Position numbers and translations under genes: made by a program. From positions 1 to 29,722 of IMG/VR virus record IMGVR_UViG_2740892236_000001: 29,722 nucleotides of DNA. One strand, 5' to 3'. Source of the DNA: a virus. Its lineage: Duplodnaviria; Heunggongvirae; Uroviricota; Caudoviricetes. Positions 8,499 through 28,135 of the stretch are shown here, piece after piece. Position 1 is the first letter of the stretch. The number at the start of each line of letters is the position of its first letter. The notes under the pieces are model-generated. The model made no database searches. It worked only from the letters and a program-made list of their open reading frames with translations, and had not been told where the DNA came from.

Positions 8499-8514
8499 CG
8501 GGTTTTGTGCTCCA

Positions 8515-9426: not shown

Positions 9427-9444
9427 TGTACCGATAACCACACA
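9427..9444. promoter_or_regulatory. TGT-N12-ACA element (TGTACCGATAACCACACA) in the O/P divergent intergenic region; candidate late-promoter activator site
   Basis: Read directly from the sequence. Lies ~80-95 bp upstream of the O start codon (9348, minus strand) and ~50 bp upstream of P. Confidence 0.35.
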
Positions 9445-9490
9445 AACCGCAGGCGGGGAAAGCCTTCATTCAAGGCTGTAGGTTTGTGCC

Positions 9491-12297: not shown

Positions 12298-12335
12298 CAT
12301 ACTCATAACATCAATAACCGACCAACTCTCACAAC

Positions 12336-12369
12336 GCCTCAGCAGCATTCTGCTGGGCGTTTCTTTTTG
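12336..12369 (+). terminator. rho-independent terminator after Q
   Basis: Hairpin CAGCAG-CATT-CTGCTG with flanking GC pairs, followed by TTTCTTTTT (12360-12369). Confidence 0.5.
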
Positions 12370-12454
12370 CCCTGACATCTCCCCCCCTCCACTAAATGAG
12401 GCCGCCAGCGGGCCAGAGGCTGTGCCGGATTTTGGCCATTTTACCCCGTTGCGC

Positions 12455-12480
12455 GCGCTCGTATCCCCGCCACGCCTGCC
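12455..12480. other. candidate cos (cohesive-end) site
   Basis: Minus-strand GGCGTGGCGGGGA (complement of 12465-12477) matches the start of the 186/P2-type 19-nt cohesive end as I recall it, and sits just downstream of Q as in P2/186. Recalled, not searched. Confidence 0.4.
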
Positions 12481-12520
12481 CGCTTTGTGTAGTGGTTTTC
12501 ATGCACCTGCATGAGATATG

Positions 12521-12545
12521 AAAAAGCCCGCCTGAACTGGCGGGC
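12521..12545 (-). terminator. rho-independent terminator for the hotspot operon
   Basis: Perfect 7-bp stem GCCCGCC / GGCGGGC with 6-nt loop; on the minus strand it is followed by TTTTT (A-run 12521-12525 on plus), ~50 bp downstream of the 280-aa gene stop. Confidence 0.55.
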
Positions 12546-12593
12546 CGGAGCTAAAACGATCCTCAAACGATCATGCAAATTCATGCAGCATAG

Positions 12594-13436: not shown

Positions 13437-13654
13437 TATCGGGTTCTGTAATAATATTTTGCTTTAACAGTGCTCGTTTTGATGCCTTCAAGCTTATCCA
13501 TCTGATCTCGGATGGCTTTCATAGCTTCTTCGTTGGACAAATCTACGGACACAAAACCATCTTTACTCAGATTGAGCTTGTCCTGGTTCTCTTTCAGAAC
13601 CCGTGCCAAACGTTCAACTGGATTACCCAGCTTCAATGCGGCGATACTTGACAT
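13436..13654 (-). CDS. small uncharacterised protein, first gene of the hotspot operon
   Basis: 72-aa ORF with a strong SD (AAGGAGG, complement of 13659-13665) 4 nt from the ATG; translationally coupled to the 280-aa gene. Confidence 0.7.
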   Translation of the reverse strand: MSSIAALKLGNPVERLARVLKENQDKLNLSKDGFVSVDLSNEEAMKAIRDQMDKLEGIKTSTVKAKYYYRTR

Positions 13655-13829
13655 AACCCCTCCTTCTTATACGGCGCGGAAGTGTACACTTCGTCACCAG
13701 CAACCACAACAGCAAGTTCCTTATAACTAAGACAACCGTTTTAACTGTTGGTTGCGTTACTTAACTTAAGTTCATTGCCCCTAATCGCGCAAGATGTTTC
13801 TGCCTTAAACCACTGCATTTAGCATATAT

Positions 13830-13855
13830 AGTGCCTCTTATGAGAAGCAGGCACT
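13830..13855. promoter_or_regulatory. perfect inverted repeat AGTGCCT-N12-AGGCACT upstream of the hotspot operon
   Basis: Read directly from the sequence. On the minus strand it abuts a TATATAT -10-like stretch (complement of 13823-13829). Confidence 0.3.
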
Positions 13856-13940
13856 AACAAAGGCAATTTCTAACGCCTCGCACGGCTCGTTGTTCAACCT
13901 TGCGGACGGTAAAAGCCAGTTTTATCGTCCGCAACGTTCG

Positions 13941-14174
13941 CTAATGCAGCCAGCTGTCGTCTTCCCACACCTTCTGCATAATTTTCATCACTTGTTTTCT
14001 TTCTTCGTCCAGTTGCAGTCCGGTCAGTTCCACACCGTTATAGCTACCTTTGCGGATACGAATTACCGTTTTTGGATACAGGGGGCGCAGATTGCGGTAA
14101 AGCTCGGATTCAAGGGCGTCCAGGGTAGACTGGCTAATCTTCTGCTCTTTATCGATCATTATTTCAATGCGCAT
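13941..14174 (-). CDS. DinI-family protein (Tum-like SOS module)
   Basis: From the internal Met: MRIEIMIDKEQKISQSTLDALESELYRNLRPLYP...WEDDSWLH, aligning with E. coli DinI as recalled (MRIEVTIAK...DALAGELSRR...WESADDW). SD GAGGTG upstream of the ATG at 14172-14174. The 101-aa ORF in the track is probably an N-terminal overcall. Confidence 0.75.
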   Translation of the reverse strand: MRIEIMIDKEQKISQSTLDALESELYRNLRPLYPKTVIRIRKGSYNGVELTGLQLDEERKQVMKIMQKVWEDDSWLH

Positions 14175-14184
14175 AAAAGTCACC

Positions 14185-14373
14185 TCAGCTGATGACATCC
14201 ATTGAGCGGTTGTATTCGTGGCTTCTGATTTTTGCCATGAGTTCATCAGTCAATTCAGAAACCCACTGCAGAGCCAGCCCCTTCTCTTCATCACTACACT
14301 CACTAGCCGCTACAAGCTTAAGAAAAAAATCAATGCGCTGGAGCTTCAAAGACTCCAAAAAATAGTCCTGCAT
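14185..14373 (-). CDS. small protein (62 aa), first gene of the SOS-box operon
   Basis: Internal ATG at 14371-14373 is preceded by AGGAGGA. The 96-aa ORF in the track extends upstream across the LexA box and is probably an overcall. Confidence 0.55.
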   Translation of the reverse strand: MQDYFLESLKLQRIDFFLKLVAASECSDEEKGLALQWVSELTDELMAKIRSHEYNRSMDVIS

Positions 14374-14416
14374 CTTTCCTCCTATGACACCACAAGCAAT
14401 ACTGTATACATAACCA

Positions 14417-14432
14417 CTGTTTATATTTACAG
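14417..14432. promoter_or_regulatory. LexA box (SOS operator) CTGTTTATATTTACAG
   Basis: Perfect CTGT-N8-ACAG match to the E. coli LexA consensus, ~45 bp upstream of the 62-aa gene start and next to a TTTACA -35-like element on the minus strand. Confidence 0.6.
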
Positions 14433-14526
14433 CATATAATAATCTTACTGATGTAAAACGTTTTTTTACGTTCATCAGCCTGATATGCCTGGTATTATTA
14501 AGAGCACGAATTGTTAACCCGCGTAA

Positions 14527-16941
14527 TTAATACAAGTTTCGCCACTTATCATCTTCCTGCAAACGCTGGTTCCGATAGAAGATACGCAGGCCTGCTCCTG
14601 ACGGAATACTGCCGCCGCGAAGGAGTAAATCGACCTCTTTCTCGCTGCCATCAAATCCTCTGGACTTCAGTTCGTAGACGAGCTGCTGTCGCTGATGGTC
14701 TGTAATTCGCTGTTTGTAGTCTTTACGCCGTTTCGGTTTCACCAGGCGTAACCTTGCAGCCAGTTCCCGGCGCTCTTTTTTGCTCATACTGTGCAGGTAA
14801 TCGTGCAACTCCTTGTCATCCATGCGGGTAATGTCCGTCCTGGTATCCCCATCAGCTGATTTGTCTTTCCCTTGTTGGTTCAAATTTTCAGCAAGGGGAC
14901 AGTTATTGCCACGAGTCCAAGGGGCGCAAGCGCCCTGGTCGGCTGCCGCCTCCTGAACGTCAACGGCCTTACGAACCATTTTCCACTTCACCGCATGAGT
15001 GCAGATCTTGCCCTCTGCAATGGGTGACCAGATGCCATAAATACGAATACCGTGATCGCCATATGCGGTCGGTTCTTCGTTGATTTCATAAGCAGTTCTG
15101 ATGAGGTGATATTTGCGGGGAACCAGTACGCCGCCCTGCTTCATGATGTAGGTGGCAAAACAACCAGCATCAGCAGCAGCCAGGATTGCATCAAGGCGCG
15201 GGTTATCCAGTACCGGCGCACCTGCTTTTTTGTCCCCCTGTTGCCTTGCCGCCTGACCAGCCAGCAATCGCAGTTCACGGTAAGCCTGACGCCCCGGAAT
15301 GCCAAAGAAGCGGAATTGCTGAACACGATGCAGAGACGCCCAGGCATTAACGTATTCAGCGTTATCACGCAGGGATTTACCCGTTTCCTTGCTGATCTCG
15401 CCAGCCAGACCACGCCCGTCAATGTTCTTACTGATGTATTTCGCGATGTAGCTTGTTGGCGTACCTTTGCGCGGGTTTATCAGCTCAGACTTAAAGCGTG
15501 GCCCCGTGTTATTGCCCAGCTCCTCGCGGTCTTCACGGATGGCAAACTTACGCAACAATGCAGTAATGGCGCGGCGGTCTTTTTTACGCATGAAACACAA
15601 CAGGTGCCAGTGAACTGTGCCGTCATGATGCGGCTCAGCCACCCGCACGCCATACCAGCGCAACCCGGCTTTGTGCATAGCCTTACGAAATGCAGCAAAC
15701 ATGCCGACCAGATAATCGCTGCTTTGTCTTACTGTCGCGTTGGTCCAGGTCGGGTTTGGCCTGCCGTTATTTAGCGTGGAATGGAAACGTGACGGACAGG
15801 TGATGGTGTAGAAAACGGCGCAGTCACCACGCATTTCCGCGATAAGCTCCAGGCCTTTAACACAGGCCATCATCTCATTGCGGCGATGCGCCGGGTTGCT
15901 GCTGCTGGCGTTTACCACATCCTCCATGTTCAGCGTGTCGCCGTCTTCGTTCACCAGTTCATGAGAACGGAAAAACTCCAGCGACTTACGGCGCTGCTCA
16001 CGTTTATGCATCACGGCTTCATAGCTGACATAGGGAGATGCTTTTTTGCTGACCAGGCAGACAGCACGCAACTGCTCTTCCCGCCATTCGCAACGCATCT
16101 TCCATAATTTCCGATACCACCAGTCGGCGCACAGCATACGCGCCAGCGAACCCGGAATGAGTTCATAGGGCACAGGTTTGCGGCGGTTTCTTTTCCGGCG
16201 GAGTTGCTCAAACGCAGGCGGTATGACATCCAGTCGCAGGGTTTCTGCAGCCACCTTTTCCCATGTCTTGCGGATTTCTTCTGGCTTAACATCATCGGAG
16301 GCGTACAAATCACCACAAGCGGCATCAAGACACATGCTCATATGCGCAGCGACAAGGGTAGACAGGCGTTTCACCTGATCCTGACTCATTTCAGGCAGGA
16401 TCAGCAGACCGTCCAGCCCTTCATGGCTTGCCATAAAACGAAAAGATGCAGATAGCTGGCTGTCGCGTACATGCTCCAGTCGTTCCAGACATGGCTTAAT
16501 CGTCTCACGCAAATAGCGGGAATAAGCCTTTGGCCTGCCCAGGCTGCTGAAATATTCAATACGTTGCATCAGCGGCTTGCTGATATGGGAAGGCTGGGCG
16601 TTGACGTCGGCCAGAATGACCATGTCCGGATTAAAACGCTGCTGCTCATGCGCCATCTTTGCCCGGCTAATGAGCTTATCCTGCTCCATTTCGCGTTGGA
16701 CAGGATCACGGGATTCATTAAAGAAATAACGCTCCCAGACCTGATCACTCAGTGCCTCGCGGCGCAGTTGTTCCTGCTCGTTATCAGTAGCGTACAGAGT
16801 GATCAGGTTTGAAAGCGCAGAAACCGGCGCAACTTCCGCCGGGTCCAGATAAGGGTTAATGGCCTTTTTCGGGCTGTTCCATGAGAACGATGCGGCAGCT
16901 TCGTTAAAGCCGCAGCAGTTGTTCATATCGGCATGACTCAT
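14527..16941 (-). CDS. A: replication initiation protein A (rolling-circle HUH endonuclease)
   Basis: 804-aa ORF with HUH-like motif ([10 protein letters not shown]) and paired tyrosines (YIAKYISK) as in P2 gpA. Start overlaps the dam stop. Confidence 0.85.
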
Positions 16942-17795
16942 GCACGTACTCCGTACACGGCAGAACTATCCACGCCACGCGAATAATCAAATCCCACCCA
17001 GCAGCGCGGCCCGGAAACAGCAATGATTTCTGTTGCTGATTTACCCTCGCCAGCTGCCACACCGATGCTGCGTTTTGCCTTGATGTAGTGGTGAGTAAAA
17101 TTGCGATACAGCGAACGGATCAGGGATGTGTCACTGTTAGAAACAATGACCGGATGTCCTTCTGATGACCGATGTTCAAGAACGGATGCCAGGTGATACT
17201 GGTCATCTTCAGTGAAGCCGTCAGTGTGATAACCGGAAAACGTGCCGTCATACGGCGGATCGCAATACACCACATCCCCCGCCTTCAACATCGCCAGCGT
17301 TTCATCAAAGCTGGCGCAGATAAACGTTGCCCGCTGGGCTTTTTCTGCAAATGCGCGAATTTCTTTTTCTGGGAAATACGGATTTTTATAATTACCGTAG
17401 GGAATGTTGAAATGCCCGCTCTTGTTATAGCGACATAAACCACGGTAACCGTGACGATTGAGATACAGGAAATATACCGCTTTCATGAAATCAGTAATTT
17501 CAGTTGAGTAATTAAACTCCTGCCTTATGTTGTAATAAGCCACCTCCCTGTTTGCTTCCTTAAATAAAACTCTGGCGCGAGATATAAACGATTCACAATC
17601 AGCGGCAACCTTTTTATAGAGGTTGATTAAATCAGGATTAATATCCGCAACCAGATAGCTTGGATAATCCGTCTCCATCATCACAGCACAGGAACCCGCG
17701 AAAGGTTCAACCAGTCGCGGGCCAGCAGGAAGGTGTTTTTTCAGTTCGGACATAATGGCAGTTTTATTACCCGCCCATTTCAGGATGGTGCTCAT
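16938..17795 (-). CDS. dam: DNA adenine methyltransferase (Dam family)
   Basis: Start at internal Met [11 protein letters not shown] with SD GCAGGAGG; contains FAGSCAV and DPPY motifs typical of Dam/N6-adenine methyltransferases. The longer ORF to 17867 is probably an overcall. Confidence 0.85.
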
Positions 17796-18094
17796 ACAGC
17801 ACCTCCTGCAATAACATATCCTAAAGCTTCTAATGGGGTTAATGAGCGAATTGATAGCATCACCCATTGTTCTGAAACTGCCATGACGTCATTAACCGGA
17901 AGCACATGAGAGATAACCGCGGCCCATTCCCTACCCGTAAATACGCCATGCTTCCATTCGCAAAGAGAAAGAACATCACCAACTTTATAGCCACGATCGT
18001 CTTTACGAAGTTCAGCCGTCTTTTGACCTGCAACCACAGCATTGAAATACTTAGGTGCAATTTTTAATTGATGGATACGCACAGCCCCTGTCAT
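17792..18094 (-). CDS. small phage protein, possibly ASCH/DUF3850-like
   Basis: ~100 aa from Met [42 protein letters not shown]; SD ACGGAGG; stop overlaps the dam start (ATGA). Family assignment is tentative. Confidence 0.55.
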
Positions 18095-18318
18095 ACAGCA
18101 CCTCCGTTGTAATGTTTGCCTTTCAGCTCTACGATTTCCTGGCAGGTAATGCAAAGCTGCACTCCCGGAATGGCGCGGCGTCGTGCTGGCGGAATTGGCG
18201 CTTCACACTCAATGCAAAGCACACGAGACACGCCCGGCGTTCTGGCACGGGCAGCACGGATATGGCGCTGGCGTTCTTCTTCAACGCGCTGCTGTACGAG
18301 ATCCATTGCATCAGCCAT
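18091..18318 (-). CDS. TraR/DksA-family C4 zinc-finger protein
   Basis: 75-aa ORF with CIEC-X17-CITC arrangement ([27 protein letters not shown]). Confidence 0.7.
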
Positions 18319-18557
18319 TAGTGGATCTCCTGCGCTTCGTTCTGGATTGCTTCAGCAGTTACACGCAGCAGTTCTGCCGCTTCGACGTGGTTTAGCTGGC
18401 GGGATGTGATATGACACGCCAGGCTATCAAGGCGAGCTGCCATTGCTTCAGCCCTTGCCCGGCGTTCTTCCAGACGAGCCTCTGTCAGTAAAATATTAAG
18501 CCCTGCGTCATCCGGTCCGGTTTTAGTCGAGAGGGTTTCAATATTACGCATAATCAA
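18318..18557 (-). CDS. hypothetical early-region protein
   Basis: 79-aa ORF; stop overlaps the downstream gene start (TAATG). No family assigned. Confidence 0.5.
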   Translation of the reverse strand: MIMRNIETLSTKTGPDDAGLNILLTEARLEERRARAEAMAARLDSLACHITSRQLNHVEAAELLRVTAEAIQNEAQEIH

Positions 18558-18618
18558 TTCTCCTGAATTTAGATAAAGGGATGCCCGGCGGGTTTACGCC
18601 ATTAATTTCATTAGTTGG

Positions 18619-18960
18619 TTAATTCGGCATGGTTAGCCGTCTGGGAAATAAGCTCACCACTGCACGAAAATGATTCATTGCTTTAATCAACTCCCGCTTT
18701 TCGTCAGTGGTCAGCTCATTAATGCTGATGCTATGACGTTCAGCTGGAATTTTTGCCATAAAGAATATGGCAGCCAGTGCCCGTTTATTTTGTTCATTAT
18801 TGATATCCCGTGGATCACGCATATCTTTAATAAACCGCTCAAGCTCTGACTCAATATTAAGGCCAAATACTTTCGCCCTTAACTCCGCAATATGATTAAG
18901 TCCATTCAGGCGTTCACCGGGGCTTAATGGAACAGTCGCTGCAGCGCCATTAATTGCCAT
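18619..18960 (-). CDS. hypothetical early-region protein
   Basis: 113-aa ORF in the operon between cII and A. No family assigned. Confidence 0.5.
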   Translation of the reverse strand: MAINGAAATVPLSPGERLNGLNHIAELRAKVFGLNIESELERFIKDMRDPRDINNEQNKRALAAIFFMAKIPAERHSISINELTTDEKRELIKAMNHFRAVVSLFPRRLTMPN

Positions 18961-18982
18961 AATTCATATCCCCAAAACGCAA

Positions 18983-19207
18983 CTATTGTTCTTTGTTCTT
19001 ACGGTAACGTTCGAGAGGAGATACATTTTTTCGTATCGTTTCTTTAACCTGCTCTCCCCGTAAAAACGTCCCATCCTTTAGCGTGAAAAAGTAACTGCCA
19101 TCGCCCGACAACGACGGATAACAACAGAGCAAATCATCTTCAGGTACTGAATAACTCTCCCCTCTGTAACGAAACTGATAAACCACTTCACTTTCCGCTG
19201 CATACAT
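18983..19207 (-). CDS. hypothetical early-region protein
   Basis: 74-aa ORF with SD GGAGAAAG upstream of the ATG at 19205-19207. Confidence 0.5.
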   Translation of the reverse strand: MYAAESEVVYQFRYRGESYSVPEDDLLCCYPSLSGDGSYFFTLKDGTFLRGEQVKETIRKNVSPLERYRKNKEQ

Positions 19208-19381
19208 TTTGACTTTCTCCGTTTCCCCGTGGTCAATTCAGACAGCAATTCATCTTGTGAACGGCACGGATGCCAGCGTTTACCATCCTCACCCATGATC
19301 CAGCCGTGACCGTAGTGCATTGCCGGGCTTTGTTTTACCAGCAGCGATGCAAATGATGGTTCTTTCGTCAGCATAAGCACC

Positions 19382-19891
19382 TCACAGCAAACCGAATGAA
19401 GCACCGAGGCCAGTCACGGTATCAACTGCACTCGCCATCGCAGGATTAGCCTGTAAACGGGCCTGCAATGAAACAGCCGCCAGCGCCATCAGTCGTGTTA
19501 CAGAGTTAATGCTGCTGATAGCATCACGACGACCGGCACAGGTTTTTACATCGCCAGATACCGCACCTGCAGCAACACGCCCGATCTCTGCGGTTGCACT
19601 CATGACGTAATGTGGCAGTTTCTCTTTTGCCACCTCATTAATCGGTACACATGGCAGACAATGAATCTGTGCCAGAAAACCATCTACCAGCGTTGAATCT
19701 TCAGTCAGATCGGTAAGCAGCCAGATTTCTGGTGCGGTTAATAAATGAGGCTGAGCTGGGTTCAGCTTGTTCCGCAGAATCTGTACATTCATGCCTGCAC
19801 GTTCTGCCAGTTGCACCAGGTTGTGACGCAGTGCAAAAGCCCTACAGGCTTCATCGAAATGCGGATGTTTGGAAATCTTGTAATCAAACAT
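19382..19891 (-). CDS. cII: CII-type transcriptional activator (phage 186 CII-like)
   Basis: 169-aa ORF starting [45 protein letters not shown]..., resembling 186 CII as I recall it (also 169 aa). Confidence 0.75.
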
Positions 19892-19923
19892 GGTGCCCCC
19901 TTAGAAAGTTCCCATAATTGAAC

Positions 19924-20166
19924 TTACTTACCAACAATGACGCGGAAGTTGGAATGACCGAGGGATTCACGGACCTGATCAGTTTTGTACATCAGATAAC
20001 GAAGGTTTACGCGGCCTTTATTTTTTTCTTTCTTGACCATGTATTTAGCAAGCTGACCATGGTGAATTTTTTGATACACGGAGCCGCGGGAGATACCTTC
20101 CCATTCCGCGAACTCTGCAGGCGTAGCCATCTCTTTTGGTACACGAATTGAAATATCAGTGCTCAT
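19924..20166 (-). CDS. apl: Apl/Cox-type excisionase-repressor
   Basis: 80-aa ORF divergent from cI and immediately upstream of cII, the position and size of 186 Apl. Confidence 0.65.
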   Translation of the reverse strand: MSTDISIRVPKEMATPAEFAEWEGISRGSVYQKIHHGQLAKYMVKKEKNKGRVNLRYLMYKTDQVRESLGHSNFRVIVGK

Positions 20167-20223
20167 AGTGCAGTATCTCCCGATTAAGGTTTGGTTTACG
20201 TCGTTTTATCTCGTTTTAATTGA

Positions 20224-20273
20224 TTCAATATTTGATACATCGAGATACTACGATCCAATATTTGATACGTCAA
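20224..20273. promoter_or_regulatory. lysis-lysogeny switch: two direct repeats CAATATTTGATAC (candidate CI operators) overlapping a sigma70-like promoter facing apl
   Basis: Repeats at ~20226-20238 and ~20256-20268, 30 bp apart. Minus-strand TTGACG (complement of 20268-20273), 17-bp spacer, TAGTAT (complement of 20245-20250). Confidence 0.45.
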
Positions 20274-20285
20274 CAGGATTAAAAA

Positions 20286-20918
20286 ATGATACAGGTAAAG
20301 GCTGGAGAGAATACAGGGGGAAGAGAAGCTATCCATAGACTAATGGCAGCCTATGATTTCAAGTCCAGACAGCAACTTTGCGATCACTTAGGCGCATCAA
20401 AAAGCACCATGGCAAACAGATACTTAAGAGATAGTTTTCCTGCAGAGTGGGTGATTCAGTGCGCCTTGGAAACAGGAGTTTCTTTACTGTGGCTAACCAC
20501 CGGACAGGGGGAGCCAGGTCCAAACATTGAACCCAAAAAAAATATCAATTCCGTGAACTCCAGCAAGGTTGTACCTCTTTCTGAACTAGTATCTCCTGAA
20601 ATTGACAAGGCGACTCTCAACGGTGGTTTATTGGTCGATGCTGGAAAAGCAATCATTGATAGCAGCATACTCCCCTCAGACTCAAGCAACCTACTGCTGG
20701 TGACTACTTCTGGTGATTCTTATTTAATAGATCGCAACCAAACACCACCAGTGAATGGTATGTGGTTAGTCGATATCGACGGGATAAAAAGCATTGTTAA
20801 ATTGACTCGACTCCCGGGAAACAGATTAGTAGTGCATCAGGATGATTCATCGTTTGAGTGTGGCCTGGGTGACATTGAGGTAGTAGGCCGTGCACTGAAA
20901 ATCATTAAGAGCCTTTGA
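20286..20918 (+). CDS. cI: CI-type immunity repressor (186 CI-like)
   Basis: 210-aa ORF divergent from apl and immediately upstream of int; N-terminal region consistent with an HTH DNA-binding domain. Confidence 0.75.
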   Translation: MIQVKAGENTGGREAIHRLMAAYDFKSRQQLCDHLGASKSTMANRYLRDSFPAEWVIQCALETGVSLLWLTTGQGEPGPNIEPKKNINSVNSSKVVPLSELVSPEIDKATLNGGLLVDAGKAIIDSSILPSDSSNLLLVTTSGDSYLIDRNQTPPVNGMWLVDIDGIKSIVKLTRLPGNRLVVHQDDSSFECGLGDIEVVGRALKIIKSL

Positions 20919-20919
20919 T

Positions 20920-21936
20920 ATGACCATCAGAAAACAGCCGAACGGAAAATGGTTGTGTGAGTGCTATCCCAATGGACGCAATGGCAAGCGCGTGCGTAAG
21001 CAATTTGCCACGAAAGGCGAAGCCATAGCATTCGAAAACTTCACCATGAACGAAGTAAACAAAAAGCCATGGCTTGGTGAGAAGGAAGATCGGCGGCGAT
21101 TATCAGAAGTGATTGAGCAGTGGTATTCCCTATATGGTCAAACACTCGCAGACCCCAAACGCCTGATGGCGAAACTTAGAATTATCTGTAATGGTCTAGG
21201 CGATCCCATCGCCTCTGAGCTGACAGCAGGTGATTTCACAAAATATCGGGAAGCCAGATTAAAGGGGGAGGTCCAAAATGAAGACGGCTCGTTCATGTCA
21301 CCCGTTAAGCCCCGCACGGTAAACCTTGAACAGCGCAACCTATCATCTGTTTTTGGTACACTGAAAAAGCTGGGCCACTGGTCAGCCCCCAACCCGCTTG
21401 CCGGGCTTCCAACATTTAAAATTACGGAGGGTGAACTGGCGTTCCTAACCCCGGAGGAAATTAAACGTCTGCTGGATGCCTGTGCTGATTCTCAAAGCCC
21501 CAGTCTGCTAATGATTGCAAAAATATGCCTAGCAACCGGTGCTCGTTGGAGTGAAGCTGAAAACCTGCAGGGCCATCAACTATCGAAATACCGGATTACC
21601 TATACAAAGACCAAGGGTAAAAAAAACCGTACCGTACCGATATCTCAGGATCTGTACAACGAGCTACCCAAAAACCGAGGGAAATTATTCACACCATGCA
21701 GAAAAGCCTTTGAACGGGCGGTAAAACGGGCCGCTATTGAACTACCGGAAGGCCAATGCACCCACGTCCTGCGCCATACATTTGCCAGCCATTTTATGAT
21801 GAACGGTGGGAACATACTCGTTTTACGTGATATTTTAGGGCACTCAGATATTAAAATGACGATGATTTATGCACACTTCTCTCCAGACCACCTGGAGGAT
21901 GCAGTAACAAAAAACCCTCTTTATAACTTAATTTAA
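20920..21936 (+). CDS. int: tyrosine integrase (P2/186 Int family)
   Basis: 338-aa ORF with C-terminal HVLRHTFASHFMMNGGNILVLRDILGHSDIKMTMIYAHF (catalytic R/H/Y region); N-terminus resembles P2 Int. Confidence 0.9.
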   Translation: MTIRKQPNGKWLCECYPNGRNGKRVRKQFATKGEAIAFENFTMNEVNKKPWLGEKEDRRRLSEVIEQWYSLYGQTLADPKRLMAKLRIICNGLGDPIASELTAGDFTKYREARLKGEVQNEDGSFMSPVKPRTVNLEQRNLSSVFGTLKKLGHWSAPNPLAGLPTFKITEGELAFLTPEEIKRLLDACADSQSPSLLMIAKICLATGARWSEAENLQGHQLSKYRITYTKTKGKKNRTVPISQDLYNELPKNRGKLFTPCRKAFERAVKRAAIELPEGQCTHVLRHTFASHFMMNGGNILVLRDILGHSDIKMTMIYAHFSPDHLEDAVTKNPLYNLI

Positions 21937-21950
21937 GTAAACAATGGATC

Positions 21951-22601
21951 ATGAACATAAACGAGATAATTAAGTATTCTGTCGCGATAATTACCCCGAT
22001 CATACAGATGCTCGCGGTAAGATCCGGCTGGGTTTTCCCCAAAGATAAGATTTTCAACTCGCGCAAAAACATTAGCGAGTTTGCATACAATCTATATAAG
22101 AATACTGAAGATCCCAAAATCAAGAAAGTTGCATATAATTATGGTATTGCTGCAATAACAAAAGATAAGAACCTAACTCCAGAACAGAGAGAGATTCTTT
22201 TAGGTGTTAACGATCCAGTTAATGACATTGATAACTATAGCAAGTGTCAAAAACTAATTTCTATTAGTAGTGAAAAACAAATATTTAAATGGACAAAAAA
22301 AAGATATCGCTTTTGGATATATAGAAAATCTATAAAGCTGATAAGCTTAACATTCTATTTTATTGGCGGTTTTATAACTTCCATACCTTTTGTATACGAA
22401 GGATTAGTAACCCAACATATTTTAGAGAAAATTAATAAACTTACTGATATGCAAAGATTAGGAATGTCCAGCTACTTTTTTGCACTTGGGATTTGTATAG
22501 CACTGATGAACCTGCATAAATTTTCGACTATTCGTATCGCTGAAAAAACCATAAGATCTAATCTCCGTAAACCCACAGATTTCAACTCAAGCAGCGGATA
22601 A
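21951..22601 (+). CDS. uncharacterised membrane protein in AT-rich DNA between int and att
   Basis: 216-aa ORF with two predicted TM helices (LISLTFYFIGGFITSIPFVY; MSSYFFALGICIALMNL). Markedly AT-rich relative to the prophage core, by eye. Confidence 0.6.
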   Translation: MNINEIIKYSVAIITPIIQMLAVRSGWVFPKDKIFNSRKNISEFAYNLYKNTEDPKIKKVAYNYGIAAITKDKNLTPEQREILLGVNDPVNDIDNYSKCQKLISISSEKQIFKWTKKRYRFWIYRKSIKLISLTFYFIGGFITSIPFVYEGLVTQHILEKINKLTDMQRLGMSSYFFALGICIALMNLHKFSTIRIAEKTIRSNLRKPTDFNSSSG

Positions 22602-22603
22602 TG

Positions 22604-22624
22604 TGGCGACAGATTGGCGACAGA
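22604..22624. promoter_or_regulatory. direct repeat TGGCGACAGA x2 (11-bp periodicity); candidate integrase arm-type sites
   Basis: Read directly from the sequence, ~100 bp from the att core on the int side. Confidence 0.3.
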
Positions 22625-22716
22625 GCATTAAAAATGAGTAAAACGGACAAACATAAGATAATACTAACTTGATGATTTTAAACGCAAGTTAATGTTTTTG
22701 TTATAGTGAAAATGGT

Positions 22717-22754
22717 ATGTAGGAATTTCGGACGCGGGTTCAACTCCCGCCAGC
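22717..22754 (+). other. partial tmRNA (ssrA) 3' end: candidate prophage att core
   Basis: ATGTAGGAATTTCGGACGCGGGTTCAACTCCCGCCAGC matches my recollection of the E. coli tmRNA 3' end (T-arm and acceptor strand) but lacks the terminal TCCACCA; upstream is phage DNA, not tmRNA. Confidence 0.6.
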
Positions 22755-22883
22755 CAATCATGATTGGACGGTGTAAGGACAACACCAACAAAAACAGGAA
22801 GTTAGAAGTCTCAGCAAAACACCGACCAGACGGTGAGGAGACATAAAAGGATACGCAAAGGAGCCGCGGCTCCTGGTAACATG

Positions 22884-22908
22884 AAAGCCCACAGATGTGG
22901 GCTTTTTC
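22884..22908. terminator. hairpin terminator between the att segment and the autotransporter gene 3' end
   Basis: AAGCCCAC-AGAT-GTGGGCTT followed by TTT on the plus strand; could terminate either convergent transcript. Confidence 0.5.
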
Positions 22909-22916
22909 GTTGATGG

Positions 22917-25900
22917 TCAGAACGACCAGTTCACACCAGCTACCGCGTTCCACGGGGATTCCACACCGGCACTATGGCTATACCCCACCCCAAGATGCCC
23001 GCTTAACGTACTGCTGAATGAGGCTTTAATACCTGCCTGGTATATTCCACGTCTGCCCGACAAATAATTGACGAAATTACCGTCACTATTCACTTTCACC
23101 CGGTTATCATCGACAAATTCTTTGCGCACAGCCGCCTTCAGCCACGGCTCAACTTCCATACCGTTCCCCAGACGCATGTTGTAACTCAGCGTTGCGCCCA
23201 GTTCACGATATATACTGCGGGTATCGACTGATTTCGATTTCATGCCATTGGATAAATGATATTCGGGGTTATCAGCGGTGAACCCCGTTAACGATGCATA
23301 CGGCGTCAGGTTCCAGTTACCATCGGTAAATCGCATCCCGGTTTCAATGTGACCGCCCAGCCCGTTGCTGTGGTAACTGCCATTGGCGGCTCCACCGCTG
23401 CTCATTTTACCTGCTACGTTACTTTTAAAACGGTTCAGCTTCACGACACCGTCCAGATAGAAACCACTTTCATGTTCCCAACTGGCATAGCCGCCCAGAG
23501 AATAACTGCCCACACTGCCATGTCCTCCGCGATCAAAACCGATATGTGAATGGGAATAGCCCATAAAAGCGCCTAGCGTGGTAATTCCTTCAGGAATATC
23601 ATTACGGCTGTCGATCCCCACTGTCATTCCGGTCAGCGTCTGCTCAAACCCGGCACCCGCATCGGTGGTGACATTATTACGGGTGTTATACGTCGCCCCC
23701 CAGACATTATTGTTGTGTGGACTCGCTTTCATTATGTTCAACCGCTCGCGAATACTGTTTAGCTCAGCATCAAATACCAACGGTAATGTTGCTGCCATAT
23801 TGAGTACGGCTGCCGTAGAAGGCGTAATGCGTTTCTCCGGAACGGGTGTCGGCGTTGGATCGGGAGTAGGGTCTGGTTTTGGATTTGGGTCTGGCTTTGG
23901 ATCGGGTTTTGGGTCTGGCTTTGGATTTGGGATGGGGTCCGGGTTGGGTTTGACATCATTGGTCAGGTTCCAGTTGCTGTTGCCGTCACTTTTCAGGACA
24001 TACTCATAGGTCCCAAGATCAACGAAACCGCCGGTATTGCCCAGCGTAAACGAAGCATCCCCTCCCCCTGTTTTCACCAGCGTCATCGCGTCGTCAGACT
24101 GTGGGCTGACGCCGGTATCCTGAACAAAGATTTTAAAATTACCAGTGGCGTTGTTGTTGACGACCAGTTGATCGCCCCGGGAGCCTGCAACGTTGGTATG
24201 CAGGTAGAAATTACCGCTACCGGAAAGTTCATTGGTTGTCAGCGTATTGTAGATACCGTTAGTTGTGGCAGGCGCTGCTGTTTGTGCTGACAAATAAACA
24301 TCACCGTCGTTGAGTAGCAAACTGTTTACTCTATATTCGCAGTTGCTGGTACCTGCACAGGAATTATTGCTGTTAAGCCAGACACTGCCCCGGCTGGCAG
24401 CCGTCAGGTCGGCAAGCGTGGTATCGACGCCATTTCCCAGAGTCAATGTCGCGCTATCGGTAATCCGGACCGCCCCTTCGAGTTTAACTGGCGTAACATT
24501 ATCCCGTGGCGTCATTAACGACAGGCTTCCTGTCGCGCCACTGACCGATGCATCCGCCAGCGTACCTGCGTAGACGATTGCCGTACCGCCAGCGACCTGG
24601 AGATCTTCTGCCCGGGCCAGAGCCTGAAACTCATCTTTTGACCGCCCAAGGGTATATTGCCCGCCAGAGTTAACCTTTGTGGCGGAGTCCTGACCCAGGT
24701 TTTGCATTGCCCCACCCTTGCCAACCGTGGAGTCGCGAGCTTCGGTACCTGCTAATACCAATAAATTACCGCCATTTTCCAGCAACATATTGGTCGCTAA
24801 ATTGCCGGAAATGGAAAAAGTACCGTACTGGTGAGTACCGCTGATTTCAATACCGTTAGCCGTGCTCGTCTGGAGAGCGGCACCGCTGTTCTGGACGATA
24901 TCTGTCGCTTTGCCATTATCGTTGACTGTCAGCGTACCGCCTTCATTGATCTTTGTTTTTATTGCCTCTCCGTTAGCTGAAACTGTTTGTATTCCGCCGT
25001 CGTTAATTGTTGTCTCATTCGCCACACCCTCGACAATTTGTTCACCGCCGGTGAGCGTCGTGCCTGTCGCAGTGGCTTTTGTTTTGACGATCTCCCGTCC
25101 GCCCATATTGACCTGTGTTTTGTCAGAAGAGGTGTCTGACTCCACGGTTAACACGCCGCCATTTGCCAGCAGGATATTGTTCGCCGCACCCTGCTCGATG
25201 CTGAACGCGACGCCATCCGCGCGTGTTCCTGTGACCCGCGTCGCCCTGGTGGTTGCAACCAAAGCGCCCTGGCTACTCTGCTGTATCCCCGTTGCGCTGC
25301 CTTTCTCCCGCACATCGAGTGTGCCGCCGTCATTAAGCACCGAGTTTTCAGCCAGACCGCCCTCATTAACTACCTGTGAACCCCCATTAATAATGGAACC
25401 TTCCGCTGTCCCGTTTGCCATAATTTGTTGTAGGCCAGAGACGATATCGGTATTGATTGCCTTACCATAATTCTGAACGGTTTGCGTGCCACCATTGATG
25501 TGTGTTTTCTCTGTTGACCCACCATCAACAATTTGTTCACCACTTTCGATATTTGCTTCAGTGGCTAAACCATATACCGTTTGCTTGCCACCTTTGATAT
25601 TTGCTTTATCAGAAGTGGCACTGGCATATATTGTTTGGGTGCCAGCACTATTGAGTACAGTGCCAACATCTTTTCCATAAACATCCATTTTGCCGTTGGC
25701 ATTAATAATCGTGTCAACTGCGCGGGAACCAGTGACGACTGTTAATGAGCCAGCGTTTTCCAGCACTACATTTTTAGCTTCTGAATTCCTGATGTAGAAA
25801 GCATCACCATAACTGTTGGTTCCTTCGATAAGTGTTCCGGAGGTCGTGGAAGCAATTAATGCGCCGCCGGATTGTTGCTCAACATGCTTAGCCTCACCAC

Positions 25901-27506
25901 CGTCCTGAACCTCCAGAACGCCGCCATTATTAAGTCTGGTGCTATCTGTTTTAGCCTCCTTCTGGACAATCAGCTTACCGCCAGTATCAATGGTAGTATT
26001 TTTCGCCGAGGTTTTAGCCACTACCGTCAGTTCGCCGGTATTTTCCAGCACAACATAATTAGCCTCCCCTCCGGTAATAGTGAAGTGAGAGAGCTTGTTG
26101 TATCCTTCGATATCAGTCCCTGCACCCGTGTTGGCAACTAAAGCACCGCCCGTCTCCTGGTTAACCCCATGTGCAATACCGCCGGTATAGACAATCAGCG
26201 AGCCTCCGGCGCTAATATTGCTGCCAATTGCCGTACCATCTTTCTCAACAACCTGCCGGCTCCCGGAGGATATAATTGTTGTGTCAGCTTTCCCGCCGCT
26301 TTTGATATTTTGCGTTCCGCTGTTGATATTGGTGCCTGTGGCTATGCCATAATTATTAATATTCTGTGTGCCACCATTAATTATGGTATTTGTCGCGTTT
26401 CCTGCAACATCCATAACCCCGCCATTATCTATTCGGGTCGCATCAGCTTTAGCATTGGTTAAAACTGACATTGTTCCTTTATCTTTAATAATCGTCTTGT
26501 TTGCCGAACCATATGCGTTTATGTCTAAATGACCACCGTTTTCCAGCAACACATTGTCTGCCACGTGATTGTGGATGGAGAATGCACCTTCACTATTCGT
26601 ACCGCTCACCGTCGTACCGTTAGTGTTAGTTTTTAAAATTGCACCATCGTGCTGGGTAACATTTGTTGCCGTACCACCACTAACATCAAGCACGCCACCA
26701 GAATAAACTTCAATAACATCCGAGGTGCTGGTGTTATCAACAATTTGCGTGCCACCAGAATAGATATGCGTATTTTTTGCCGTTGACTTACTATTCAGAG
26801 ACTGAGTTCCGCCTTCAATCGTCGTGTCCAGCGCACGGCTCTCATATACTCTTTGCTCACCGCCATTTTTAATGGTTGTTGTTTCTACTGTGCTCTGTTC
26901 AACATACTGTCGACCACCATTTATGGTTGTGTTCGTTGCCAGACTTCCTTGTACTACGTCCTGAGAGCCAGACTTATTTATCGTTGTACCATCAGCATGC
27001 CCTTGAACTTTTACTATCTGGCTACCACCATCAATGAGTATTCCATTCGCACTCCCTCCCTCTACGCGTGAAGCACCGCCCTTAATTGTCGTTCCATTGC
27101 TGATACCCCCTTTATAAACGTCCTGATTGCCACTCTCGATTGTCGTACCTGTGGAAATACCCCCGTCATGAATTGACTGTCTGCCACCGTTAATGGTTGT
27201 ATTATTAGCCTGCCCCACAAAATTGTTATGACTTCCTATATCTTGATATCCACCAGATTCAATAAGACTTCCATTAGATACCCCGCCATGAACATTCTGC
27301 TGGCCATGGTTGATAATATGAGTGTTATTTGTTGTACCTCGTTCATCCACTTTTTGGTTGCCATCTACAGTCTCATCGTTTACCACACCAATAACATTAG
27401 TAGTGAAGGCAGCCATCCCGGGCGGGGCATATATCAAGGCAGATATCAATAAGGAAAGTACTGAGCGGCGACAATAATAGGGACTGGTCCTGTTCATAAA
27501 TTTCAT
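22917..27506 (-). CDS. large AIDA-I-type autotransporter adhesin (YpjA-like)
   Basis: C-terminal beta-barrel ending ...AGVNWSF, Pro-rich (PxPKPD) linker, long repetitive passenger domain. Probable start at MKFMNRTSPYYCRRSVLSLLISALIY (extended signal peptide); the track ORF extends to 27626. Resemblance to K-12 YpjA is from memory. Confidence 0.85.
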   Translation of the reverse strand: MKFMNRTSPYYCRRSVLSLLISALIYAPPGMAAFTTNVIGVVNDETVDGNQKVDERGTTNNTHIINHGQQNVHGGVSNGSLIESGGYQDIGSHNNFVGQANNTTINGGRQSIHDGGISTGTTIESGNQDVYKGGISNGTTIKGGASRVEGGSANGILIDGGSQIVKVQGHADGTTINKSGSQDVVQGSLATNTTINGGRQYVEQSTVETTTIKNGGEQRVYESRALDTTIEGGTQSLNSKSTAKNTHIYSGGTQIVDNTSTSDVIEVYSGGVLDVSGGTATNVTQHDGAILKTNTNGTTVSGTNSEGAFSIHNHVADNVLLENGGHLDINAYGSANKTIIKDKGTMSVLTNAKADATRIDNGGVMDVAGNATNTIINGGTQNINNYGIATGTNINSGTQNIKSGGKADTTIISSGSRQVVEKDGTAIGSNISAGGSLIVYTGGIAHGVNQETGGALVANTGAGTDIEGYNKLSHFTITGGEANYVVLENTGELTVVAKTSAKNTTIDTGGKLIVQKEAKTDSTRLNNGGVLEVQDGGEAKHVEQQSGGALIASTTSGTLIEGTNSYGDAFYIRNSEAKNVVLENAGSLTVVTGSRAVDTIINANGKMDVYGKDVGTVLNSAGTQTIYASATSDKANIKGGKQTVYGLATEANIESGEQIVDGGSTEKTHINGGTQTVQNYGKAINTDIVSGLQQIMANGTAEGSIINGGSQVVNEGGLAENSVLNDGGTLDVREKGSATGIQQSSQGALVATTRATRVTGTRADGVAFSIEQGAANNILLANGGVLTVESDTSSDKTQVNMGGREIVKTKATATGTTLTGGEQIVEGVANETTINDGGIQTVSANGEAIKTKINEGGTLTVNDNGKATDIVQNSGAALQTSTANGIEISGTHQYGTFSISGNLATNMLLENGGNLLVLAGTEARDSTVGKGGAMQNLGQDSATKVNSGGQYTLGRSKDEFQALARAEDLQVAGGTAIVYAGTLADASVSGATGSLSLMTPRDNVTPVKLEGAVRITDSATLTLGNGVDTTLADLTAASRGSVWLNSNNSCAGTSNCEYRVNSLLLNDGDVYLSAQTAAPATTNGIYNTLTTNELSGSGNFYLHTNVAGSRGDQLVVNNNATGNFKIFVQDTGVSPQSDDAMTLVKTGGGDASFTLGNTGGFVDLGTYEYVLKSDGNSNWNLTNDVKPNPDPIPNPKPDPKPDPKPDPNPKPDPTPDPTPTPVPEKRITPSTAAVLNMAATLPLVFDAELNSIRERLNIMKASPHNNNVWGATYNTRNNVTTDAGAGFEQTLTGMTVGIDSRNDIPEGITTLGAFMGYSHSHIGFDRGGHGSVGSYSLGGYASWEHESGFYLDGVVKLNRFKSNVAGKMSSGGAANGSYHSNGLGGHIETGMRFTDGNWNLTPYASLTGFTADNPEYHLSNGMKSKSVDTRSIYRELGATLSYNMRLGNGMEVEPWLKAAVRKEFVDDNRVKVNSDGNFVNYLSGRRGIYQAGIKASFSSTLSGHLGVGYSHSAGVESPWNAVAGVNWSF
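23857..23952 (-). repeat. tandem 6/18-nt repeat encoding the PDPKPDPKPDPNPKPDPTPDP linker
   Basis: Visible tandem GGGTCTGGCTTTGGAT-type repeats; the plus-strand 'GSGFGSGFGSG' ORF is its antisense image. Confidence 0.6.
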
Positions 27507-27899
27507 CCTCTGAAAAGTGAATACTGAGTAGCGTTTAAGCGACCTTAGCTTTGCTGCAACATCAGCCCACAGGCACCAGACCAGGGGATTCATCCTGAAG
27601 AGACAGCGCAAGTGTATTGTGTTCACCGCTCATCAAAGACATCATGATGAAATGATGATATTCCGCATAAGAATGAGGCATTTTTTAAACGCAGTGCGCT
27701 GAAGTGTGGTTGGATAAAAAAGTCAATCCATTCAGGAAATACGGGCGTATTCTTTTCTTTCGACAATGAGGCCGTTGGCAAAATAAAATGATTTACATAA
27801 TCGTTTCTGATGAATATCTTCTGCTCACATAAAAATCACACAATAACTTTGAGATCGCAGATTGTTTTACTTTTACAGCATTCGTCCCCCCATTGTTGG

Positions 27900-28135
27900 G
27901 CAAATATAGATTGGGCCAGAGCACGAAAGTTAATACCACGTTCGCACAGCTCCTCCAACAGCACGACAAGATGCCACATACTGCGCCCCAGTCGGTTCAG
28001 TTTACAGACTAGCAGTGCGTTCCCTGCCGATGATGTCCTGACCAGTTTTTTCAGTCCGGACCTCCTGCCACGGTTTTACGTTGAAGTGGTAACCCTGAGC
28101 ACGCAGTTCTTCAGTCAGGCGTGGTACACCGTAAC
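27900..28135 (-). pseudogene. serine recombinase (Pin/Hin-type invertase) remnant, frameshifted and truncated
   Basis: Manual minus-strand translation gives NRGRRSGLKKLVRTSSAGNALLVCKLNRLGRSMWHLVVLLEELCERGINFRALAQSIF, matching the conserved ...GDTLVVWKLDRLGRS...L..EL.ERGINF.SLTDSI core of Pin/Hin as I recall it. No intact N-terminus; stops and frame changes upstream. Confidence 0.5.

What the first reader, a model, noticed from the sequence alone, without database searches (positions are those of the whole stretch)
22717..22754. Prophage boundary at a truncated tmRNA (ssrA) 3' end that lacks the terminal TCCACCA
A 38-nt stretch matches the 3' end of E. coli tmRNA (from memory) but is preceded by phage DNA and followed by CAATCATG instead of the tmRNA terminus. 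This is the signature of an att core at an ssrA-targeting prophage. The missing terminal bases suggest the junction derives from an earlier ssrA-site element, so the locus may have seen successive integrations; the neighbouring autotransporter and recombinase remnant fit that picture.
Basis: partly seen in the sequence, partly recalled or inferred. Interest (0 to 1): 0.5.

Follow-up and report, generated by a model that had tools for sequence, protein, structure and literature searches.

The report
Prophage end with truncated ssrA remnant
This is the right-hand attachment site of a Fels-2-like prophage in the E. coli tmRNA gene (ssrA); its leftover copy of the gene's end carries an already catalogued 5-base deletion, so clean excision of the prophage should leave the cell with a dead tmRNA gene.

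Summary
Window 22717-22754 is an exact 38-nt copy of the E. coli ssrA 3' region. Phage DNA lies to its left and the conserved chromosomal flank of ssrA, then ypjA, to its right. It is the attR of a Fels-2-like (P2-family) prophage; the integrase is 94% identical to Fels-2 Int.

Related phages carry a 45-bp ssrA block in attP, and a fresh integration leaves a perfect 45-bp repeat. Here five internal bases (TCCAC) are missing, not the last seven: the final CA and the native flank ATCATGATTGG are present.

The same 5-base-deleted remnant occurs in about 550 of 5,426 complete E. coli genomes. It sits beside unrelated elements (P4-like satellites, a lambdoid phage in UTI89, the O157 island) and once in a prophage-free ssrA (strain WB61). 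Strain SCU-172 has the same phage with a full attR, in tandem with a P4-like satellite that carries this remnant.

The neighbouring autotransporter and recombinase remnant are ordinary chromosomal neighbours, not evidence for it.

The remnant type and its effect (inactive tmRNA) are already published (Williams 2003; Onodera 2022). New here is its pairing with a P2-type prophage.

The parts
1..22716 (.). Right-hand ~22.7 kb of a Fels-2/186-like P2-family (Peduoviridae) prophage; its left end and the intact ssrA lie outside the window
   Evidence: 99% covered at 96% identity by the SCU-172 prophage, which has P2-type capsid, terminase, portal, tail and gpA genes. gpA replication protein confirmed by Pfam.
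19382..19891 (-). CII-like regulator
   Evidence: Pfam PF06892 Phage_CP76, E 4e-42.
19924..20166 (-). Apl (Cox-like excisionase and repressor)
   Evidence: 78 of 79 residues identical to Fels-2 Apl. The homologue in Cartapus is annotated as a Cox-like excisionase. No Pfam hit.
20286..20918 (+). CI repressor (186 type)
   Evidence: Pfam PF07022 and PF16452.
20920..21936 (+). Tyrosine integrase, full length (338 aa)
   Evidence: 94% identical to Fels-2 Int and 93% to Cartapus Int. Pfam Int_N and Phage_integrase.
21951..22601 (+). Cargo ORF of unknown function (216 aa) between int and the att site
   Evidence: No Pfam or PADLOC hit. This position holds a different gene in every relative examined.
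22602..22716 (+). P arm of attR (phage side)
   Evidence: Aligns with the left arm of Cartapus attP and with the attR arms of LR-33, SCU-172 and USMARC-51688.
22717..22754 (+). 38-nt ssrA 3' fragment: the first 38 bp of the 45-bp att core
   Evidence: Exact match to K-12 ssrA. Core defined by Cartapus attP and by the Fels-2 attP annotation.
22755..22756 (+). CA: the last two bases of the ssrA CCA end. The 5-base deletion (TCCAC) lies between 22754 and 22755
   Evidence: Alignment A1 against the unoccupied site, intact attR sites and attP.
22754..22767 (.). 14-bp perfect palindrome CCAATCATGATTGG spanning the gene end and the flank; it survives the deletion
   Evidence: Read from the sequence and checked by script. 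The flank is conserved next to ssrA in several genera of Enterobacteriaceae.
22757..22916 (+). Native ssrA downstream region (chromosomal), with a hairpin followed by a T run at 22884-22905
   Evidence: The first ~235 nt compared after the junction, which run about 75 nt past this part into ypjA, read the same as the flank of the unoccupied site L011 (compared by eye, no identity computed). Inverted repeat reported.
22917..27626 (-). ypjA adhesin-like autotransporter: a chromosomal neighbour, not part of the prophage
   Evidence: Pfam AIDA, Pertactin and Autotransporter domains. Lies directly beside an unoccupied ssrA in L011. The window flank 22755-29658 is 99.94% identical to K-12.
27836..28075 (-). 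pinH recombinase remnant: a chromosomal neighbour
   Evidence: Coordinates transferred from the K-12 and LR-33 annotations. Also present beside the prophage-free site of WB61.

Best explanation
The 38-mer is the core of attR, the right junction of a Fels-2-like P2-family prophage integrated into the tmRNA gene ssrA. These phages carry the last 45 bp of ssrA plus their own terminator in attP. The integrase recombines this block with the chromosomal gene. The phage copy then completes ssrA at the left junction, and the displaced chromosomal 3' end is left at the right junction. In this strain the right junction is a hybrid. Its left part (P arm plus 38 bp) is Fels-2-like. Its right part (GCCAGC, 5-base gap, CA, native flank) is the degenerate remnant typical of right ends of other ssrA-site elements, above all P4-like satellites. 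It most likely got there by element turnover. Either the phage integrated upstream of a resident P4-like element that was later lost by recombination within GCCAGC, or it integrated into an ssrA already scarred by such a loss and repaired it. The consequence is inferred. Int/Apl-mediated excision, with crossover near the 5' edge of the 45-bp block, would return an intact attP to the phage. It would leave the chromosome with ssrA lacking TCCAC. That allele cannot form the acceptor stem with its G-U pair and is inactive in trans-translation.
For: Shown: exact 38-nt match. Int is 94% and Apl 99% identical to Fels-2. The P arm is homologous to Cartapus attP, which carries the full 45-bp block ending TCCACCA plus a terminator. 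Fels-2 attP is annotated at the same place. The attR of USMARC-51688 and the phage-satellite junction of SCU-172 both hold perfect 45-bp copies. An unoccupied site has an intact ssrA followed by ATCATGATTGG and ypjA, and the same gene end and flank are conserved in other genera. The exact remnant with 5 bases deleted occurs in 552 genomes, in several contexts. About 150 have GGGTTCAACTCCCGCCAGC to the left, including UTI89, where the element is a different lambdoid prophage. About 56-60 have a P4-like arm. About 346 are O157:H7- or O55:H7-type. SCU-172 has ssrA, then a phage whose last 3.4 kb is 99.9% identical to the window, then a full core, then a P4-like satellite, then ACTCCGCCAGC-CA-ATCATG and ypjA. 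CFSAN051542 has a Fels-2-like arm joined to the P4-type remnant lacking one T. WB61 has no prophage, and its ssrA itself carries the 5-base deletion; ARAGORN cannot place its normal 5' end. From the literature: the remnant CGCCAGC-----CA is listed for Stm27X, Eco48X and OI-108, and the ssrA allele lacking these 5 bases gives no tagging in E. coli (PMC10107115). Excision of CP4-57 and of CP4So transfers the attR defect into ssrA.
Against: The window does not contain the left prophage end or the intact ssrA, so the full structure of this strain is not seen. None of the 5,426 complete genomes has this exact combination. LR-33 shares the phage end and the flank at 99.9% identity but has GCCCCCA instead of GCCA, and K-12, with a 99.94% identical flank, has GCCCACCA. 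So the remnant can change in place faster than its flank, which leaves room for local decay. The crossover position of the Fels-2-type integrase was not mapped. It is inferred from the rule that a phage must carry everything from the crossover to the gene end; that rule is my own knowledge of Williams 2002 and was not checked here. How the 5-base deletion first arose is unknown, and it recurs in Mangrovibacter and Salmonella. A recurrent mutational mechanism could therefore have produced it again here.
Confidence: 0.7

Rival explanations
1. Local decay: the phage integrated once into a virgin ssrA and left a perfect 45-bp repeat. The non-functional right-hand copy later lost TCCAC by ordinary mutation, with no other element involved.
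For: The remnant is under no selection. LR-33, with the same phage end and flank at 99.9% identity, has a different length variant (GCCCCCA against GCCA), so changes in place do occur. Next to the native flank a series of lengths exists: CCACCA, CCCCCA, CCCA, CCA and CA.
Against: It would have to recreate exactly the allele already present in about 550 E. coli genomes beside unrelated elements, and also in Salmonella and Mangrovibacter. The deletion has only 1 nt of flanking microhomology, so it is not an obvious slippage product. Most Fels-2-like attR sites beside the native flank appear to keep the full core, judged from alignment lengths.
Confidence: 0.2
2. Sequencing or assembly artefact: the 5-base gap is an error in this window.
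For: Short indels near C runs are common assembly errors. LR-33 differs from the window only in the length of a C run.
Against: The identical 43-mer across the junction is found in about 150 independent complete genomes, including UTI89, S88, APEC O1 and ATCC 11775. It is also catalogued in the literature.
Confidence: 0.02
3. A functional RNA gene: a second tmRNA, a split tmRNA piece, or a tRNA-like small RNA.
For: The T arm and part of the acceptor strand are intact. PGAP annotates a similar attR in USMARC-51688 as a 177-nt tmRNA.
Against: There is no 5' half, no tag reading frame and no CCA end in context. ARAGORN finds nothing. Rfam gives 22.9 bits against a gathering score of 47. The upstream sequence is the phage P arm, shared with attP of a sequenced phage.
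Confidence: 0.01

Closest known systems
Fels-2 (Salmonella LT2), Escherichia phage Cartapus and related Peduoviridae that integrate into ssrA through a P2-type tyrosine integrase
   Same: Integrase 93-94% identical and Apl 99% identical. Same gene order: cII, apl, cI, int, cargo, att. Homologous P arm. Same att core taken from the 3' end of ssrA.
   Different: Published Fels-2, SopE-phi and SpaX right ends keep CGCCAGCTCCACCA intact (Table 1 of PMC10107115), as do USMARC-51688 and SCU-172. Here the right end lacks TCCAC.
The remnant CGCCAGC-----CA at Stm27X (S. Typhimurium LT2, P4 integrase), Eco48X (E. coli RS218) and OI-108 (O157:H7 EDL933), from Williams 2003 as tabulated by Onodera et al. 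2022
   Same: The same 5-base deletion at the same chromosomal position. The same predicted outcome of excision, and the resulting ssrA allele has been shown to be inactive. I re-found these contexts in UTI89, TW14359 and SCU-172.
   Different: Those elements have P4-type, CTX-phi-type or unclassified integrases and shorter cores. Here the left half of the site belongs to a P2-type phage with a 45-bp core.
CP4-57 (E. coli K-12; attR annotated as pseudogene psaA) and CP4So (Shewanella oneidensis): prophage excision as a switch that inactivates tmRNA
   Same: An imperfect right-hand ssrA copy, so that excision writes the defect into ssrA and rescue shifts to ArfA.
   Different: Those are P4-like cryptic elements with a 1-base (T/U357) deletion and experimentally shown excision. 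Here a seemingly intact P2-family prophage has a 5-base deletion, and no excision data exist.
[quoted passage not shown]
   Same: Several integrase families share ssrA. Arrays such as Fels-2 plus Stm27X in LT2 parallel SCU-172.
   Different: The window shows a presumed end product (a hybrid attR), not the array itself.

Membership tests
attR of a Fels-2-like (P2-type integrase) prophage in ssrA | Orthologous tyrosine integrase and excision cofactor next to the site | tested here: met
   Int 94% and Apl 99% identical to Fels-2; Pfam domains present; full length.
attR of a Fels-2-like (P2-type integrase) prophage in ssrA | P arm homologous to the attP of sequenced phages of the family | tested here: met
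   Aligned with Cartapus attP and with three other attR sites.
attR of a Fels-2-like (P2-type integrase) prophage in ssrA | 45-bp core identical to the ssrA 3' end | tested here: not met
   38 bp are identical, five bases (TCCAC) are absent, and the last CA is present. The site is a degenerate or hybrid member of the family.
attR of a Fels-2-like (P2-type integrase) prophage in ssrA | Matching attL: an intact ssrA completed by the phage P' arm at the other prophage end | not testable with these tools
   The left end lies about 11 kb outside the window and the source genome is not in the collections. The feature is met in the closest relatives LR-33 and SCU-172.
Prophage excision switch that inactivates tmRNA (CP4-57 / CP4So type) | The attR copy of ssrA differs from attL 3' of the crossover, so the excised chromosome inherits a defective 3' end | tested here: inconclusive
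   The sequence difference is shown. That the crossover lies 5' of it is inferred, not mapped. WB61 shows that such a product exists in nature.
Prophage excision switch that inactivates tmRNA (CP4-57 / CP4So type) | The resulting ssrA allele is non-functional | tested here: met
   The acceptor stem loses two pairs and the G3-U pair. ARAGORN cannot place the normal ends in WB61. The allele is experimentally inactive in E. coli (PMC10107115 Fig. S1b).
Prophage excision switch that inactivates tmRNA (CP4-57 / CP4So type) | Regulated excision without cell lysis that yields viable cured cells | not testable with these tools
   This needs excision assays. The phage appears lytic-competent in the part seen, so induction may simply kill the cell.
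Functional tmRNA gene | Complete tRNA-like domain, tag reading frame and CCA end | tested here: not met
   ARAGORN finds none. Rfam finds none at gathering threshold and 22.9 of 47 bits for a partial match.

The most novel reading that the evidence does not exclude
The damaged ssrA remnants (missing 1, 4 or 5 bases) may not be random decay. They may be a systematic product of P4-type elements that is then handed on to unrelated phages. None of 29 P4-type right arms examined is followed by the T of GCTCC. The 1-base-deleted form is seen here in Escherichia, Citrobacter and Enterobacter and is tabulated in the literature for Salmonella Typhi, Shewanella and (with a slightly different core) Vibrio. 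The 5-base-deleted form is seen here in Escherichia and Mangrovibacter and is tabulated for Salmonella. If the T lies in the P4-type overlap region, the mismatch would both lock the element in place and make curing cost the cell its tmRNA. Through tandem integration and loss of the downstream element, any phage that lands at ssrA, such as the P2-type phage here, would inherit this curing penalty. Conversely, a phage integrating into a scarred ssrA would repair the gene and be selected for it.
Probability: 0.3. Interest if true: 0.55.

Novelty: new member of a known kind. Interest (0 to 1): 0.3.

Why it matters
It shows that a seemingly intact P2-family prophage can carry the same curing penalty at ssrA that is known for cryptic P4-like elements. 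Loss of the prophage would switch the cell from trans-translation to ArfA-dependent ribosome rescue. It also gives a concrete chain of natural intermediates for element turnover at one integration hot spot: an unoccupied site, a tandem array, hybrid junctions and a scarred gene. For annotation, the fragment should be marked as an att site or ssrA pseudogene (like psaA in K-12), not as a tmRNA. The general phenomenon is already published, so the gain is incremental.

Tried and rejected
ARAGORN and Rfam at gathering threshold gave nothing, as expected for a fragment.

I looked for the source genome or an identical junction among 5,426 complete E. coli genomes. None has a Fels-2-like arm joined to the 5-base-deleted remnant.

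I first read the gap as loss of the terminal 7 nt. Alignment with unoccupied sites showed it is an internal 5-nt gap.

I considered that ATCATGATTGG might be foreign DNA. I rejected this because it follows intact ssrA at unoccupied E. coli sites and in other genera.

I considered that an element with a crossover 3' of the gene might stamp the deleted sequence into the chromosome, with the O157 island as candidate. The O157 array is too degenerate to tell, so this is left open.

I tried to settle whether the missing T of P4-type right ends comes from the element or the host. Comparative data (0 of 29 with T) and the published excision products point in opposite directions unless the T lies in the overlap region. 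This is unresolved.

The IMG/VR contigs of about 12 kb are integrated copies, not free circles, so they do not give a clean attP.

Pfam and PADLOC found nothing for the 216-aa cargo ORF.

Williams 2003 and Wang 2009 are not held in the library. Kirby 1994 was not looked up. All three are cited only through other papers or from memory.

Full report
**Observation**

Window 22717-22754 reads ATGTAGGAATTTCGGACGCGGGTTCAACTCCCGCCAGC. It is identical over all 38 bases to E. coli K-12 ssrA, ending seven bases before the gene's 3' end (L003:1412-1449; ssrA ends ...CCAGCTCCACCA). It occurs once in the window. ARAGORN finds no tmRNA or tRNA, and Rfam at gathering threshold finds nothing. With the relaxed threshold the tmRNA model matches 22668-22760 at 22.9 bits (gathering score 47, E 1.9e-7). 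That is the expected signal of a 3' fragment.

**What surrounds it**

To the left lies a P2-family prophage. Window 1-22716 is 99% covered at 96% identity by a prophage of strain SCU-172 that has P2-type capsid, terminase, portal, tail and gpA genes. The last genes before the 38-mer are:
- CII, 19382-19891, minus strand.
- Apl, 19924-20166, minus strand, 78 of 79 residues identical to Fels-2 Apl.
- CI, 20286-20918, plus strand.
- A full-length tyrosine integrase, 20920-21936, plus strand, 94% identical to Fels-2 Int and 93% to Cartapus Int.
- A 216-aa ORF with no family match, 21951-22601.

To the right lie ypjA (22917-27626, minus strand), the pinH remnant, ypjB and ypjC. This flank (22755-29658) is 99.94% identical to K-12 MG1655.

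**What a fresh integration looks like**

The packaged phage Cartapus carries in its attP the arm ...TTGTTATAGTAAAAATGGT. This is followed by the last 45 bp of ssrA (ATGTAGG...CCAGCTCCACCA) and then by its own terminator hairpin. Fels-2 is annotated with attP at the same place. Window 22602-22716 aligns with that arm. In USMARC-51688 a related prophage has an attR with the full 45 bp followed by ATCATGATTGG and ypjA. In LR-33 and SCU-172 the left junction is an intact ssrA followed by the phage terminator AATAAATCAAGGGG.... The system therefore works as in the textbook case. The phage copy of the gene end replaces the chromosomal one, and the displaced chromosomal end stays at attR.

**What is missing**

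Strain 720632 has an unoccupied site: intact ssrA, then ATCATGATTGGACGGTG..., then ypjA 160 nt downstream. The same gene end plus flank is conserved in E. ruysiae, E. whittamii, Klebsiella, Raoultella, Leclercia, Trabulsiella and Mangrovibacter. Against this reference the window reads ...CCAGC-----CAATCATGATTGG. Five internal bases (TCCAC) are gone. The final CA (22755-22756) and the native flank are present. The 14-bp palindrome CCAATCATGATTGG (22754-22767) survives the deletion.

**How common the deletion is, and next to what**

The 43-mer across the junction matches 552 of 5,426 complete E. coli genomes.
- About 150 match perfectly over the full length. These include UTI89, S88, APEC O1, IHE3034 and ATCC 11775.
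- About 56-60 have a P4-like left arm.
- About 346 (O157:H7, O55:H7 and others) share only CGCCAGCCAATCATG....

In UTI89 the element to the left is a different, lambdoid prophage with a 390-aa integrase and a core that starts only at CGGGTTCAAC. In O157:H7 TW14359 it is a degenerate array ending in an island with two tyrosine recombinases. In WB61 there is no element at all. There ssrA itself carries the 5-base deletion and abuts ypjA, and it is the only such genome of 5,426. By contrast, at least 1,659 genomes have the exact intact junction. No complete genome has the window's combination of a Fels-2-like arm with the 5-base deletion. The nearest is LR-33, with GCCCCCA.

**Evidence for turnover**

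SCU-172 carries, in order:
- An intact ssrA.
- A Fels-2-like prophage whose last 3.4 kb is 99.9% identical to the window.
- A full 45-bp core.
- A P4-like satellite. Its integrase is 61% identical to K-12 IntA, and it has psu, delta and a P4 primase.
- The sequence ...TTCAAACTCCGCCAGC-CA-ATCATGATTGG, then ypjA.

Removing the satellite by recombination within GCCAGC would give exactly the window sequence, including the CCC of ACTCCCGCC. CP4-57 excision crosses over in that segment. This follows from K-12 attL and attR, from the laboratory strain DTU-1, which has CCC plus the missing T, and from published work. CFSAN051542 is a second hybrid: a Fels-2-like arm and 38-mer joined to GCCAGC-CCACCA, the P4-type remnant lacking one T. 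The reverse order also exists: three IMG/VR contigs show a P4-like arm joined to a Fels-2-like P' arm. WB61 offers the alternative route, in which the phage integrates into a scarred ssrA and repairs it. I cannot tell the two routes apart for this strain. Both mean that the right half of the site predates the phage. This is inference from comparison, not observation in this genome.

**Consequence**

The following is inferred. Because these phages keep a 45-bp ssrA block, the crossover should lie near its 5' edge. A phage needs to carry only what lies between the crossover and the gene end; this rule is my recollection of Williams 2002. Excision would then give the phage back an intact attP and leave the chromosome with ssrA lacking TCCAC, which is the WB61 state.

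The following is shown. That allele pairs only 5 of the 7 acceptor-stem positions and loses the G3-U pair. ARAGORN cannot place its normal 5' end. Onodera et al. 2022 built exactly this 5-base-deleted allele in E. coli tmRNA and saw no tagging (PMC10107115, Fig. S1b).

**Comparison with what is known**

Table 1 of that paper, citing Williams 2003, already lists CGCCAGC-----CA for Stm27X (LT2, P4 integrase), Eco48X (RS218) and OI-108 (EDL933). It lists intact ends for the P2-type elements Fels-2, SopE-phi and SpaX. CP4-57 and CP4So are the worked examples of excision inactivating tmRNA through a 1-base deletion, and K-12 annotates its remnant as pseudogene psaA. The window is therefore a new member of a known kind. 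The new element is that an E. coli P2-type prophage is paired with the 5-base-deleted remnant. ypjA and pinH are ordinary neighbours of ssrA, since they also sit beside unoccupied and prophage-free sites. They do not bear on the interpretation.

**What remains unexplained**

K-12, LR-33 and the window have nearly identical flanks (4-5 differences in 6.9 kb) but three different remnants: GCCCACCA, GCCCCCA and GCCA. Next to the native flank, P4-type right ends show a length series: CCACCA, CCCCCA, CCCA, CCA and CA. At junctions with other elements' arms they are CCACCA in 12 of 13 cases.

None of 29 P4-type right arms is followed by the T. The T-less and 5-base-deleted forms also recur in other genera: Citrobacter, Enterobacter and Mangrovibacter, and Salmonella, Yersinia, Vibrio and Shewanella. 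This argues against simple random decay and for a mechanism tied to P4-type recombination. It conflicts with the published transfer of the missing T into ssrA on excision, unless the T lies in the overlap region. I could not resolve this with sequence data alone.

Noticed in passing
L007 (E. coli WB61, NZ_CP020025.1) 5664-6022: A natural isolate with no element at ssrA whose ssrA itself lacks TCCAC. It is the only one of 5,426 complete genomes. It looks like a cured cell left with a dead tmRNA gene.
   Followed up: partly
L008 (E. coli SCU-172) 1237-47900: A helper-type P2-family prophage and a P4-like satellite sit in tandem at the same ssrA site. The satellite carries a NACHT-domain gene next to its integrase.
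   Followed up: partly
IMG/VR loci L041-L062; GTDB loci L017, L029, L034, L036, L040; K-12 L003:23460-23490: Every P4-like right arm (...AATTCAGACTCC-GCCAGC) lacks the T of GCTCC, 0 of 29. Further shortening (CCCA, CCA, CA) is seen only beside the native palindromic flank, including in Mangrovibacter. This looks systematic rather than random.
   Followed up: partly
window 22754-22767; L013-L040: The ssrA CCA end plus its flank forms a 14-bp perfect palindrome, CCAATCATGATTGG. It is conserved downstream of ssrA across several genera of Enterobacteriaceae. It may be a processing hairpin or a recombinase core site.
   Followed up: no
L010 (ATCC 11775) 2606-2780, compared with L011: The UTI89/ATCC 11775-type lambdoid prophage carries, after the ssrA end at its left junction, about 170 nt that copy the native ssrA downstream region with both hairpins. 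Its direct repeats are therefore about 200 bp, not about 27 bp.
   Followed up: partly
L002 (USMARC-51688) 5986-6162: RefSeq (PGAP) annotates a 177-nt tmRNA that is really the attR arm plus 45-bp core of a Fels-2-like prophage. It is a spurious partial gene call.
   Followed up: yes
window 21951-22601: The slot between int and the att site holds a different cargo gene in each relative: 216 aa of unknown function here, a RES-domain protein in Cartapus, 343 aa in USMARC-51688 and 309 aa in CFSAN051542. It is a likely hot spot for accessory or defence genes.
   Followed up: partly
L001 (E. coli LR-33) 17362-21260: The same prophage as in the window, reduced to a 3.9-kb remnant (one ORF, partial cII, apl, cI, int, cargo) between an intact ssrA and a GCCCCCA remnant.
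   Followed up: partly
L016 (Phyllobacterium myrsinacearum, 428-nt contig) and L032 (Ancylobacter MAG, 1,254-nt contig): Short contigs in non-enterobacterial assemblies carry an enterobacterial ssrA 3' end and flank. This is probably contamination.
   Followed up: no
L012 (O157:H7 TW14359) 4588-29130: The O157 ssrA has a C in place of T at the second base of the 45-bp block (GGACGTAGG). The 24-kb array behind it mixes a decayed effector-carrying lambdoid prophage (espM2, espW), IS elements and a two-recombinase island. No internal ssrA fragments are left.
   Followed up: partly
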